Notes under the pieces: generated by a model
Seen by the model: only the letters and a program-made list of their open reading frames with translations
Told to the model about the DNA's origin: nothing
Databases searched by the model: none
In this document: positions 1 to 3,447 of the stretch, piece by piece
Layout: the number at the start of each line of letters is the position of its first letter
Position numbering within the stretch: the first letter of the stretch is position 1
Assembly (NCBI RefSeq): GCF_024502345.1
Contig: NZ_JALDNN010000003.1
DNA length: 64,000 nt
DNA from: Escherichia coli
GTDB taxonomy: Bacteria > Pseudomonadota > Gammaproteobacteria > Enterobacterales > Enterobacteriaceae
Reading direction: 5' to 3' (one strand)
Translations under genes and position numbers: made by a program

Positions 1-2
1 AA

Positions 3-536
3 AAGCAGCAGTACCGAGCCATTTGGCTGCAAGCACTGGCTAATCACGGTGGAGCCAAGGCAGCCAGGCAAGACGGAGCAGGGGCATGTTACGCCTGGCT
101 CTATCGTCATGACCGACACTGGCTGATGGTTGCGAACCAGGTCAGGCAGCGCCGACAGGGCAACAACAGCCACATCGACTGGCGAGCGCGTGACATAAGG
201 TTGGTGCGCCTGCTGATCCGGATTGGTAGAGGTAGCGAAGAAGACCTGGGCCTTCCGCGCAGGAGTCGCAACTGGTTCCTGCAGCAGCTACCCCATCGGG
301 CATCAGTCGAGCACCGTCTCGATCAATTGCCTCTTTGCTGCACCTTCCTGGATCGCTATGCCGAGTCCGTCGGCGAGTATCAGATCCGTCGCCTGACTGC
401 AGCGATGCTGAAGGATGTACAGACAGGCATAACGTCTAGGCGCTGGGAGCTGGAAAAGCGTTGTGGATTGGAAAAAAGCAGGGTGGCACCACTGACCACT
501 GCGTTCATTCGATTGATAGGAAGATGGATTGAATAG
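3..536 (+). CDS. hypothetical protein, C-terminal part (gene begins upstream of the window)
   Basis: Frame is open from the first bases of the window to TAG at 534-536; no family recognised from the translation. Confidence 0.3.
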   Translation, partial: KQQYRAIWLQALANHGGAKAARQDGAGACYAWLYRHDRHWLMVANQVRQRRQGNNSHIDWRARDIRLVRLLIRIGRGSEEDLGLPRRSRNWFLQQLPHRASVEHRLDQLPLCCTFLDRYAESVGEYQIRRLTAAMLKDVQTGITSRRWELEKRCGLEKSRVAPLTTAFIRLIGRWIE

Positions 537-2151
537 GACAGTATTTCGTCAGATCCCGAACGGATCCAGGTTGCTGGCCGTTGGAAATTTTTTCAGGGCC
601 AAGACTCCGGCGGCCCAGTGGCAGTTGGCGGCTCTCTTTGAGCGTAACGGTCAGCTGCAGCTGCAGCGGTTCGCACAGGAGATGTCGTGTGTCTTGGCCG
701 TTGGTCGCGAGTTTCTTGGCGAAGAAGGGGCTCCTTATCGTCCCAGTGGTTTCAAGAAGACGGTGGTGCTTCCTGCAATAGATACCTGGCGGGAAAGGCA
801 GTTGGGTGAGTGCCCACGTCTGGCCAGAAGGCTTGCTGCAAATCCTGAGATATCTGGACAGCGATGCTTTGTGTTCGAGGTCGATGGTCTGACCGTCTGG
901 CTGCCGAAATTCGAGCTGGCACGAAAAATGTTCTTCCACGCAGCCTTCATCGTTCGTGCAGCCTTCGCACCGAATGGCTTGGACATGGCCTTCACGATCT
1001 ACAGAGAGGGCGATGTTGTTCATATCCATACGCCCCCGAAGACGGGGGCCCCAAGTCAGCTTCTCAAAATCAAGGGATACAGAGACCATTTCAGTTGGCT
1101 GCTGCTGAATCAGGATGTGAGGCGATCCTTCGAGTCAATCTGGCAAAGCCTCAATCAAAGGCAAGAGCGGGTACTGCAAGAGTCGGCGTATGCCAGGTGG
1201 CAGTTCGACTTTCAGGCACCCACTTCCCTCGCGGGTACCACCATGGATGTGCGAGGCCCCTTTGATCCGGAAAGCAACGAATTGCTGGTCTGGGAGATCG
1301 AAAAGCTTCAGGGGCTCCGGTTTAGCCATCGCGGTGATATTTTTTTCCATCACCCTGCTCTCAAGTTACCCGTCAGGGGAGAGAACACAGGCTGTGTATC
1401 CGTGCCATCGGGAGCGAAAGAGTTGGAGGTGGATGCTGACGAAGAGCCGACTGCTGCCAAGGAGCAGAGGTTGATTCATCTGCCCGTTGAGGGAGTCACG
1501 TTTGATGCTCAGCTGCGCACCAAGATCGCCTACAACGGGGAGCGTGCCAACGGTCATGGCAAGAAGGTCGACGACGAGCAATGCCCGAGCAGAGAAAGCC
1601 AACTCTTCGGCGTGGCTGATCCTGTGAGCGAGGGCAGCATAGCGTCAGGAGAATTCCAACAATTGGGTGAGGGAGAGGGTGATGGGGACGAGCATGAACG
1701 GCTTGCAGATCGCTTCTCGCTGCTCCGAGAGATTCTTGAACAAATCACCCAAGAGTCTGGAGTTGCGCTGGTAGCACTGGAAGTGAGGCCTCTGCCGCCC
1801 GTTCCACGTTGCAGCTACCACATGATTGATCACGAAAAATCACGCTGCTATCTGCTGGCAAGGTTCAAGCTGCAAAACGGCGATCAACGCTACCTTCTAG
1901 AAATAGATACCTCAGACAACCGGAAGACCATGTCAACGCGGATCATGGGCTTCAAAGCAGGTGTTGAGGCAGGAAAATGCATAGACAGGATCTTGAGGGG
2001 AACAGTGAAAGGCTCGTTGCGTTGGCCAGGCACCATGGCGAAGTACTGTGAGCCTTTGCACTCTGTGCATCACCCGAAAGAAAGCTCATCTGGGGCCAAC
2101 CATGCCCGGGTGTTCGACTGGAAGCAGCGGATACGCGCGGCCCTAGGCTGA
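529..2151 (+). CDS. hypothetical protein (about 540 aa)
   Basis: Long GC-rich ORF (TTG at 529, internal starts possible); no motif recognised; start codon uncertain. Confidence 0.35.
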
Positions 2152-2221
2152 TTGCAGAATACACCGCAGTTCGGCTGAGATACATCTTGTCGCGCACTGC
2201 GTGCAGCCTCCCCGAAACTGC

Positions 2222-2420
2222 CCGGAGCCGTGCCAAGGCGATATAGGCCCCTTGGGAGTCGGCAAGACGCATCTGGCCATCGCACTGCGCTATCGGGCGG
2301 CGCAGTGCGGCATCAAGACCCGCTTCATCACTGCGGCCGACCTTGGTGCTGCAACTGGGCGCGGACCAGCGTAACCGTCCGGGCATCCCGGCTGGCTTGA
2401 CCCCGCCAAGCTAAGAGATG
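2222..2420 (+). pseudogene. IstB-like (IS21-family helper ATPase) fragment, frameshifted
   Basis: Translation [35 protein letters not shown] carries a Walker-A P-loop typical of IstB, then shifts frame to [14 protein letters not shown]; no intact ORF. Confidence 0.45.
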
Positions 2421-2604
2421 GTGGCAGTTCGTGGATGCCGTTTCCCGGGTGCACGCGATCCGAGACCACGCGATCAAGCAGGAAAACAAGCACCTGGGCT
2501 TGCCTGACTGACCGCAGGCCGGCGACGACAAGGTGGAAAAGTTCGGCGTGTGGCTCTGGCGGCAACGATCCCGCGAAGGGCGGACGGTGCTTGAGCTGTT
2601 GAAC

Positions 2605-3007
2605 GTAAGCGTGCGGGCAGACCGTCTTGCGCGACTATGCCGGATGCCACCTATGCGGCAGCAGCTCTGCAATCTCACTCGCCCGCTGCGTCGGCAACCG
2701 TGTCAGCACATCCTTGAGATAGGCATACGGATCGTGCCCATTATTACGGGCCGACTGGATCAAACTCATGATCGCAGCAGCGCACTTGAGCATGCGATCC
2801 CGCGCCGAGCATTTGAGAAGGCAACGGGATGAACGCTGGCTGGATAGCCGTGGTTTTCTGGGTATGCAGCCGAATCCATTTGTGGACGAGGTTGGCATTG
2901 AGGCTGTAGCCCAAGGCGATGTTTGCGATGGAGGCACCGGGTTCAGAACACTCCTGAATGACCTGGGCCTTGAAAGATTTGCTGTAGGTACGGCGCTGAG
3001 GGGGCAT
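2605..3007 (-). mobile_element. Internally deleted IS66-family remnant (orfA-like N-terminus plus TnpC C-terminal tail and one terminal repeat)
   Basis: Minus-strand translations: ...RRTYSKSFKAQVIQECSEPGASIANIALGYSLNANLVHKWIR (orfA-like, 2744-3007) and ...SARNNGHDPYAYLKDVLTRLPTQRASEIAELLPHRW (matches C-terminus of the intact IS66-family TnpC at 39863-41455); GTAAGCGTG at 2605 lies 30 bp past the TnpC-tail stop, the same spacing as in the intact copy. Confidence 0.5.
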
Positions 3008-3447
3008 GGAAAATCCGCTTGATGGGCCATGGCCTTCGGCGGCGGTGTCGGGAAGGTGTGTTGGCAGGACGGATACTGTTGAACTACGTTGTCTGGGGCA
3101 ACGGAGGTTTTTCGGCCCGACTCTGGAACGCGATCCGCAGCGACGACTGGGCAATTCCGCACATTGGCCTGAGCAGCCTCGGGGAAATCGTCGGCTGGGC
3201 GCGCCCAGACGAGTTTCCGCCAAGGAACATGCGCACGAGCAAGGGGCTGCGGGCGCTCGGTTACAACGTGAGGATCGGTGTTTGATCTGCGGCCGTGGGC
3301 GGCGCCCGCAAGGTCCCGATCAACCCACCGTCCCCTGCGCCGGACCGGCCCGCCCTGGCATACCGTCCTTGAAGATTTGAGTCACATCAATCGGCCAGCA
3401 GATCGCTGGATGTTGACTCTTGACTTTTGGCATATTAGGCGCAATAT

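What the first reader, a model, noticed from the sequence alone, without database searches (positions are those of the whole stretch)
1..3400. Unrecognised 540-aa ORF and IS debris upstream of the heat-resistance locus
Two ORFs with no motif I recognise (1-536 partial, 529-2151) are followed by an IstB-like P-loop fragment and an internally deleted IS66-family remnant whose repeat-to-TnpC-stop spacing (30 bp) matches the intact copy. The stress locus therefore sits in a heavily IS-scarred context, and the large ORFs could be part of its original carrier element.
Basis: partly seen in the sequence, partly recalled or inferred. Interest (0 to 1): 0.35.

Follow-up and report, generated by a model that had tools for sequence, protein, structure and literature searches.

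The report
Tn7-like transposon carrying heat-resistance island
The two "unrecognised" ORFs are TnsD and TnsE, the target-choosing proteins of a Tn7-family transposon that carries the heat-resistance island (tLST) as cargo, so this is an ordinary, already annotated mobile element, and it shows how the island moves.

Summary
The features have ordinary identities.

- **Tn7 genes:** window 1-536 is the 3' end of tnsD. Window 529-2151 is an intact tnsE (Pfam TnsE_C, E = 5.5e-44). RefSeq already gives both these names.
- **IS debris:** a 34-codon IstB P-loop fragment lies at 2243-2344. An internally deleted IS66 remnant lies at 2605-3007. Its repeat-to-stop spacing is 30 bp, as in the intact copy at 39833-42326.
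- **Carrier element:** in near-identical relatives, tnsABCDE, this debris and the whole tLST lie between Tn7-type ends. The ends begin TGTGGGATGC and each carries three TnsB-site-like repeats.
- **Evidence of transposition:** seven independent insertions have perfect 5-bp target duplications. One is at the canonical site 25 bp after E. coli glmS. Four are in large plasmids.
- **Variable cargo:** the same backbone sits at glmS in Pseudomonas carrying restriction-modification genes instead.
- **State in this window:** IS26 at 15569 cuts off the far part of tLST and the left end, so this copy cannot move by itself.

Two 2021 papers already link tLST/LHR to Tn7-like elements. Interest is low to moderate.

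The parts
1..536 (+). 3' end of tnsD: the last 177 codons plus stop of a 500-aa TniQ/TnsD-family target selector. The gene starts upstream of the window.
   Evidence: Pfam TnsD E = 1.5e-13. The full-length 500-aa protein in the ~100%-identical plasmid NZ_LR890350.1 has TniQ (1.2e-29) and TnsD (3.1e-20) domains.
529..2151 (+). tnsE, intact, 540 aa. TTG start overlaps the tnsD stop by 8 nt.
   Evidence: Pfam TnsE_C E = 5.5e-44. PDB Tn7 TnsE C-terminal domain 5D16, E = 1.7e-10. [quoted passage not shown] 21% identity to Tn7 TnsE, with the block [13 protein letters not shown] conserved; the N-terminus [10 protein letters not shown] is conserved among homologues, which favours the 529 start.
2152..2248 (.). 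Non-coding tail of the transposon backbone after tnsE. The backbone/cargo boundary lies near 2248.
   Evidence: Nucleotide similarity to relatives with other cargo (Pseudomonas sp. NW5 L009, Pseudomonas sp. A-1 L015) stops at 2248. Their cargo is a type I R-M system or other genes.
2243..2344 (+). IS21-family IstB P-loop fragment (about 34 codons), the first thing in the cargo bay.
   Evidence: Pfam IstB_IS21 E = 4.6e-9, profile 98-131 of 238. PGAP calls it 'ATP-binding protein, incomplete'. It is not derived from the intact IS21 present in strain ABWA45.
2345..2604 (.). Unassigned filler between the IstB fragment and the IS66 remnant.
   Evidence: No Pfam match for any ORF here. Conserved in both backbone lineages up to 2593.
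2605..3007 (-). Internally deleted IS66-family remnant. One terminal repeat (GTAAGCG at 2605), TnpC C-terminus (2635-2787) and TnpA N-terminus (2744-3007). TnpB, the DDE core and the other repeat are missing.
   Evidence: Pfam DDE_Tnp_IS66_C 1.8e-16 and HTH_Tnp_1 6.2e-7. Sequence read. No second repeat found. The same scar is linked to tLST in about 100 E. coli chromosomes that lack tns genes.
3008..3419 (.). Conserved 5' flank of tLST. It includes a PGAP 'hypothetical protein' ORF at 3022-3285 with no family match.
   Evidence: Conserved upstream of tLST in E. coli C and AW1.7.
3420..3794 (+). First tLST gene, an HTH_17 DNA-binding protein (PGAP start at 3513).
   Evidence: Pfam HTH_17 E = 1.2e-17; annotation.
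3791..7346 (+). sHSP20 (3791-4399) and ClpK (4437-7346), the start of the heat-resistance cargo.
   Evidence: ORFs. RefSeq names Hsp20 and ClpK in identical records.
15569..16388 (.). IS26 copy that truncates the transposon. It removes the distal tLST genes and the Tn7-type left end.
   Evidence: IS26 terminal repeats. The window equals the complete element of E. coli strain 81 only over 1-15568. No left-end or TnsB-site motif anywhere in the 64 kb.

Best explanation
Window 1-2248 is the inner end of the transposition module of a Tn7-family transposon (gene order tnsA-B-C-D-E, read inward from the right end). Everything downstream, namely the IS21 and IS66 scars and then tLST, is its cargo.

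Inferred mechanism, by analogy with Tn7:
- TnsA and TnsB cut the element out at its TGT-terminated ends.
- TnsC couples them to a target selector.
- TnsD recognises the 3' end of glmS and places the element about 25 bp downstream.
- TnsE, through its conserved N-terminal clamp-binding block and C-terminal DNA-binding domain, directs insertion into replicating DNA, especially conjugating plasmids. That would explain how the 27-29 kb element with tLST reached large plasmids.

What is shown here: gene identities, end architecture, 5-bp duplications at seven independent sites, use of glmS, and variable cargo on the same backbone.

What is inferred: that TnsE made the non-glmS insertions, and that the proteins are active.

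In this window the copy is dead as a transposon, because IS26 at 15569 removed the left end.
For: - Gene identities: and the RefSeq names.
- Complete tnsABCDE in the ~100%-identical IncHI1A plasmid NZ_LR890350.1, with the right end TGTGGGATGCAAATAAAG 5.6 kb upstream of window position 1.
- Both ends with perfect 5-bp duplications: AAATG (ABWA45), GTTGC (E. coli 81), CCGAC (K. quasipneumoniae pWW14A), ACGTC (E. coli 873.10 plasmid, inside IS1), GCTGC (S. Senftenberg 775W IncHI2A plasmid), CATGT (pFAM21805, IncFIA/FIC) and GGGCT (E. coli AREA_C483).
- The AREA_C483 copy sits 25 bp after the glmS stop codon. Six further genomes (a Pseudomonadales MAG, two Pantoea, three Pseudomonas) have the right end 24-26 bp after glmS.
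- Three tightly spaced repeats at the right end and three dispersed ones at the left end.
- The same backbone carries type I R-M or other cargo in Pseudomonas.
- Backbone and cargo diverge together: about 95% identity across 1-15568 in Klebsiella plasmids.
- The TnsE block P126/E129/L130/A131/R132 is invariant across homologues, including Tn7 TnsE.
- TnsE has Thr at the Tn7 Ala453 position, as most TnsE homologues do (PMC4678854).
Against: - Within the window itself, neither transposon end is present. The right end lies upstream of the window and the left end is deleted. The carrier claim therefore rests on near-identical relatives.
- Several relatives have decayed tns genes: a tnsA frameshift and a tnsC::tnsD deletion fusion in ABWA45, and a split tnsB in strain 81.
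- Nothing here shows that TnsE, rather than another route, made the non-glmS insertions. Orientation bias relative to replication was not tested.
- G+C rises from 0.55-0.57 in the tns genes to 0.62-0.68 in tLST. The cargo was therefore captured from elsewhere at some point.
Confidence: 0.9

Rival explanations
1. The tns genes are only neighbours. On this view a Tn7-like element happened to insert next to an independently mobile tLST, and the two are not one unit.
For: IS21 and IS66 debris lies between tnsE and tLST. Most E. coli tLST copies (about 100 chromosomes, and AW1.7) have no tns genes. The G+C content of tns differs from that of tLST.
Against: The matching left end lies about 300-520 bp after the last tLST gene. 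Identical 5-bp duplications bracket tns plus tLST at seven different sites. The cargo starts exactly where relatives with other cargo diverge. The tns-less copies are cut by IS256 or IS26 inside the same IS66 scar.
Confidence: 0.03
2. The Tn7-like module is now a relic. On this view, present-day spread of tLST in Enterobacteriaceae is driven by conjugative plasmids and by IS26 or other IS-mediated rearrangement, and TnsE plays no current role.
For: This window's copy has lost its left end to IS26. tns genes are broken in ABWA45 and strain 81. Most E. coli tLST loci lack tns and the left end.
Against: Five intact tns genes persist in at least five replicons. Seven distinct insertion sites with clean duplications at 95-100% sequence identity imply recent transposition. 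TnsE keeps its conserved functional blocks.
Confidence: 0.3
3. The two ORFs are unknown accessory stress-tolerance genes that belong functionally to tLST.
For: They are co-oriented with tLST and lie directly upstream.
Against: There is strong homology to TnsD and TnsE. The same genes occur with unrelated cargo at glmS in Pseudomonas. Most heat-resistant tLST loci lack them.
Confidence: 0.01

Closest known systems
Tn7 of E. coli (tnsABCDE with dfrA1-sat2-aadA1 cargo)
   Same: Same gene set and order. Ends begin with TGT, with packed repeats on the right and dispersed repeats on the left. 5-bp target duplication. Insertion about 25 bp downstream of glmS with the right end next to glmS. A TnsE with the same C-terminal domain and the conserved N-terminal ELAR block.
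   Different: TnsE is only 21% identical over the alignment (24% in the tblastn match). The end sequences differ. The cargo is a roughly 20-kb stress-tolerance island plus IS scars rather than a class 2 integron. Three right-end repeats were detected here; from memory, Tn7 has four.
Tn7-like transposon of P. aeruginosa CF39S carrying tdcA and LHR-like genes (Almblad et al. 2021, PMC8012707)
   Same: It is a published case of LHR/tLST-type genes as cargo of a chromosomal Tn7-like transposon. Close TnsE relatives (77-99% identity) occur in Pseudomonas at glmS.
   Different: I did not have the CF39S sequence and could not test whether it has the same backbone. The P. aeruginosa relative I examined (L024) carries a type I R-M system, not tLST.
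tLST / LHR flanks as described in the tLST review (Kamal et al. 2021, PMC8290217)
   Same: [quoted passage not shown]
   Different: The review treats these as variable flanks and says the data were too scarce for systematic analysis. Here the Tn7-like element is shown to enclose tLST, with both ends, duplications and glmS use.
IS66 and IS21 insertion sequences
   Same: The debris keeps an IS66-type GTAAGCG terminal repeat 30 bp from the TnpC stop, as in the intact copy at 39833-42326. It also keeps an IstB Walker-A segment.
   Different: Neither is a functional IS. IS66 lacks TnpB, the DDE core and one repeat. The IS21 piece is 34 codons of IstB only.

Membership tests
Tn7-family (heteromeric TnsA/TnsB) transposon | Encodes the TnsA endonuclease, the TnsB DDE transposase and the TnsC AAA+ regulator, in that order from the right end | tested here: met
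   Not inside the window. Tested in the ~100%-identical plasmid L003: TnsA N and C domains (2.7e-20, 2.1e-18), TnsB Mu-transpos_C (4.4e-8), TnsC AAA_22/TniB (1.8e-18, 1.3e-11).
Tn7-family (heteromeric TnsA/TnsB) transposon | TniQ/TnsD-family target selector | tested here: met
   Window 3-536 matches Pfam TnsD at 1.5e-13. The full-length protein has TniQ and TnsD domains.
Tn7-family (heteromeric TnsA/TnsB) transposon | Terminal inverted repeats starting 5'-TGT, with several TnsB-binding repeats at each end | tested here: met
   Met in relatives: TGTGGGATGCAAATAAAG at both ends, three repeats at each end, packed on the right and dispersed on the left. Neither end is present in the window. Binding by TnsB was not tested.
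Tn7-family (heteromeric TnsA/TnsB) transposon | 5-bp target-site duplication | tested here: met
   Seven independent sites have perfect 5-bp duplications.
Tn7-family (heteromeric TnsA/TnsB) transposon | Site-specific insertion downstream of glmS (attTn7), with the right end next to glmS | tested here: met
   The right end lies 24-26 bp after the glmS stop codon in E. coli AREA_C483, two Pantoea, three Pseudomonas and one MAG.
TnsE | C-terminal TnsE domain (PF18623; fold of PDB 5D16) | tested here: met
   E = 5.5e-44 over profile positions 1-145 of 145. 5D16 matches at E = 1.7e-10.
TnsE | Conserved N-terminal motif that binds the beta sliding clamp | tested here: met
   At the sequence level only. 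[13 protein letters not shown] aligns with Tn7 IPQLELARSLFLI, and P126, E129, L130, A131 and R132 are invariant in 10 homologues. That such a motif exists is stated in PMC4678854 and PMC5371812. Its exact residues in Tn7 are from my memory of Parks et al. 2009, a paper I could not retrieve. Binding was not tested.
TnsE | Directs insertion into conjugating plasmids or the lagging-strand template, in one orientation | not testable with these tools
   Non-glmS insertions occur in IncHI2A, IncHI1A and IncFIA/FIC conjugative plasmids. Neither a preference nor an orientation bias can be shown from so few sites.
IS66 family insertion sequence | tnpA-tnpB-tnpC between two GTAAGCG-type terminal repeats | tested here: not met
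Only one repeat, the TnpC C-terminal 39-residue domain and the TnpA HTH are present.
IS21 family insertion sequence | istA plus a full-length istB | tested here: not met
   Only IstB profile positions 98-131 of 238 are present, and there is no istA.

The most novel reading that the evidence does not exclude
This Tn7-family element may be the primary vehicle that made tLST transmissible across Enterobacteriaceae, Pantoea and Pseudomonas, using TnsD to enter glmS and TnsE to enter conjugative plasmids. The tns-less tLST loci of E. coli (E. coli C type, AW1.7) would then be eroded descendants of a Tn7-borne ancestor, because they keep the same IS66 deletion scar. In the literature I could search this is only hinted at, not demonstrated.
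Probability: 0.45. Interest if true: 0.4.

Novelty: already known. Interest (0 to 1): 0.25.

Why it matters
tLST makes E. coli, Klebsiella, Salmonella Senftenberg and Cronobacter survive heat, chlorine and pressure treatments. Its flanks have been described only as variable mobile elements.

Recognising the upstream ORFs as TnsD and TnsE of an enclosing Tn7-family transposon gives a concrete and testable route for its spread. One pathway inserts at glmS in chromosomes. A second pathway may favour conjugative plasmids.

For this window, the practical point is that the copy is truncated by IS26. It has lost the distal tLST genes (trx, kefB, psiE, htpX, degP) and its left end. It can therefore move only with its plasmid, and it may confer a weaker phenotype.

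Tried and rejected
- Searched the 64-kb window for the left end and for TnsB-site repeats, allowing up to 3-4 mismatches. None were found, so the element is truncated here.
- Looked for nucleotide similarity between the IS66 remnant and the intact IS66-family copy. There is none, so the shared 30-bp spacing is a family trait, not evidence of common origin.
- Looked for the remnant's second terminal repeat. Only a weak pair, 76% complementary over 21 nt, turned up and I treat it as chance.
- Tested whether the IstB fragment derives from the intact IS21 inside the ABWA45 tLST. It does not.
- Ran Pfam on all ORFs in 2290-2830 and 3006-3380. Nothing matched.
- Ran NCBIfam on TnsA-E. There were no family hits, so PGAP's names must come from other evidence.
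- Ran Rfam and promoter/terminator scans on 1-4600. Nothing of note.
- Tried to read Parks et al. 2009 for the exact clamp motif. The paper is not held.
- Considered testing orientation bias of chromosomal insertions relative to oriC and dif. I dropped it because there are too few independent sites and the record origins are unknown.
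Full report
**Observation**

The ORFs are real and lie at the stated coordinates. One ORF enters from the left edge and stops at 534-536. A 540-codon ORF runs 529-2151.

Neither ORF is unrecognisable. Window 3-536 matches Pfam TnsD (E = 1.5e-13, the C-terminal third of the profile). Window 529-2148 matches TnsE_C (E = 5.5e-44). The C-terminal domain also matches the solved Tn7 TnsE domain 5D16 (E = 1.7e-10).

A megablast against complete E. coli genomes finds the 3.4-kb stretch at 100% identity in many records. [quoted passage not shown]

The IS debris is as described:
- An IstB Walker-A fragment covers only 34 of 238 profile positions, at about nt 2243-2344.
- On the minus strand, an IS66 TnpC C-terminal domain is fused to a TnpA helix-turn-helix, with TnpB and the catalytic core deleted.
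- The 30-bp spacing claim is exact. GTAAGCG is at 2605 with the stop at 2635, and at 39833 with the stop at 39863 in the intact copy.
- The two copies are otherwise unrelated at the DNA level.

**What the ORFs belong to**

The window starts inside tnsD, so I read the upstream DNA from relatives.

The IncHI1A conjugative plasmid NZ_LR890350.1 is about 100% identical (99.97%) to the window over 1-16388, and again over most of 21742-53387. It carries intact tnsA (275 aa), tnsB (686 aa), tnsC (536 aa), tnsD (500 aa) and tnsE (540 aa), each with the expected Pfam domains. A terminus TGTGGGATGCAAATAAAG lies about 120 bp upstream of tnsA.

In E. coli ABWA45 the same terminus occurs in inverted orientation about 520 bp after the last tLST gene. 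Both ends are flanked by AAATG.

I then examined further complete copies. All of them have tnsABCDE, the IstB and IS66 scars and the whole tLST between the two ends (26.9-28.9 kb; 40 kb where a Tn3/IS110 segment has inserted). All have perfect 5-bp duplications:

| Host replicon | Duplication | Notes |
|---|---|---|
| E. coli ABWA45 chromosome (same site in C 236-04A) | AAATG | in a genomic island |
| E. coli 81 chromosome | GTTGC | in an integrase gene |
| K. quasipneumoniae pWW14A | CCGAC | IncFIB/IncHI1B |
| E. coli 873.10 plasmid | ACGTC | splits an IS1 |
| S. Senftenberg 775W pSSE-ATCC-43845 | GCTGC | IncHI2A, conjugative |
| E. coli pFAM21805 | CATGT | IncFIA/FIC, conjugative |
| E. coli AREA_C483 chromosome | GGGCT | 25 bp after glmS |

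The right end carries three repeats at 20-bp spacing. The left end carries three dispersed repeats. This packed-versus-dispersed layout is as in Tn7.

**Target pathways**

In AREA_C483 the right end begins 25 bp after the glmS stop codon. The same 24-26 bp spacing after glmS is seen in a Pseudomonadales MAG, two Pantoea and three Pseudomonas genomes. TnsD here therefore behaves as a classical glmS-directed selector.

The other six sites are unrelated sequences in plasmids or chromosomal islands. For Tn7, that pattern is the TnsE pathway.

TnsE is only 21% identical to Tn7 TnsE but keeps its functional landmarks:
- It keeps the most conserved N-terminal block, [13 protein letters not shown] against Tn7 IPQLELARSLFLI. 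P, E, L, A and R are invariant in ten homologues.
- The literature states that a conserved N-terminal motif mediates binding to the sliding clamp (PMC4678854; PMC5371812). That this block is that motif is from my memory of Parks et al. 2009, a paper I could not retrieve.
- It has Thr at the Tn7 Ala453 position, as reported for most TnsE homologues.

That TnsE actually made these insertions is inference.

**Backbone versus cargo**

Close relatives of TnsE (77-99% identity) in Pseudomonas, Rhodocyclus and Pantoea share the tns backbone.
- In Pseudomonas sp. NW5 and sp. A-1, nucleotide similarity to the window ends at 2248, exactly where the IstB fragment begins. Type I restriction-modification genes or other genes follow.
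- A P. aeruginosa relative at glmS also carries a type I R-M system.
- tLST is therefore one of several cargoes, and the IS21 scar marks the cargo boundary.
- G+C rises from 0.55-0.57 in tns to 0.62-0.68 in tLST, which fits capture from another source.

A second lineage, in Klebsiella plasmids and AREA_C483, is about 95% identical across both tns and tLST. The association therefore predates that divergence. This lineage lacks window positions 2594-2904, a further deletion inside the IS66 remnant.

About 100 E. coli chromosomes (E. coli C type, at the mhp locus) and the AW1.7 plasmid have tLST without tns genes. They still keep part of the same IS66 scar, cut by IS256 at 2490 or by IS26 at 2895. 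They also lack the left end. The simplest reading is erosion of a Tn7-borne ancestor, though this is not proven.

**State of the copy in this window**

The window equals the complete element of strain 81 only up to 15568. There an IS26 (15569-16388) begins, just after the mscS-like gene. No left end exists anywhere in the 64 kb.

This copy has therefore lost trx, kefB, psiE, htpX and degP as well as its left end. It can no longer transpose by itself. It travels with an IncHI-type conjugative plasmid backbone.

**Comparison with what is known**

[quoted passage not shown] Almblad et al. state that LHR-like genes with tdcA lie on a Tn7-like transposon in P. aeruginosa CF39S (PMC8012707). Further searches combining tLST, clpK, clpG or heat resistance with Tn7, TnsE or glmS found nothing more.

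The gene identities and the general link are therefore already known. What the searched literature only hints at is the explicit demonstration of both ends, the duplications, glmS use and shared IS scars.

**Verdict**

Novelty: already known. Interest is low to moderate. Its value lies mainly in giving a clean mechanistic account of how tLST moves.

Noticed in passing
window 39045-42366: An IS26 copy is split by an intact IS66-family element (39833-42326; tnpA-tnpB-tnpC on the minus strand). The insertion is flanked by an 8-bp duplication, AGACAAAA.
   Followed up: partly
window 16389-21742: The segment between two IS26 copies holds a resolvase, a glutathione S-transferase, a glyoxalase-II-like hydrolase, a truncated IS91-family (Y2_Tnp) transposase and a CI-like repressor. 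G+C is 0.66-0.67 at 18-20 kb, unlike its surroundings. This segment is not in the closest plasmid NZ_LR890350.1 at this position.
   Followed up: partly
window 24615-53387: This stretch is 99.98% identical to IncHI1A conjugative plasmid NZ_LR890350.1. It includes a citrate-lyase cluster (citCDEFXGT) and dpiAB. The window is therefore very probably plasmid DNA.
   Followed up: partly
window 61000-64000: G+C falls sharply to 0.29-0.39 at the right edge of the window. The content there was not examined.
   Followed up: no
L001 16337-20536 (E. coli ABWA45 chromosome): This copy of the transposon has a frameshifted tnsA. It also has a 518-aa in-frame fusion of the TnsC N-terminus (AAA_22) to the TnsD C-terminus, which PGAP annotates simply as TnsD family. 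It is an example of tns decay after insertion.
   Followed up: yes
L019 (Acinetobacter lwoffii permafrost plasmid pALWED2.1) and about 47 other Acinetobacter plasmids: The Tn7-type left end plus the distal tLST genes and clpK occur at 98-99% identity in Acinetobacter plasmids. The tns side is replaced by IS1008.
   Followed up: partly
window 529 vs 571: RefSeq records disagree on the tnsE start (540 aa from TTG 529, or 526 aa from 571). The conserved N-terminus [10 protein letters not shown] across homologues favours 529, which overlaps the tnsD stop by 8 nt.
   Followed up: yes
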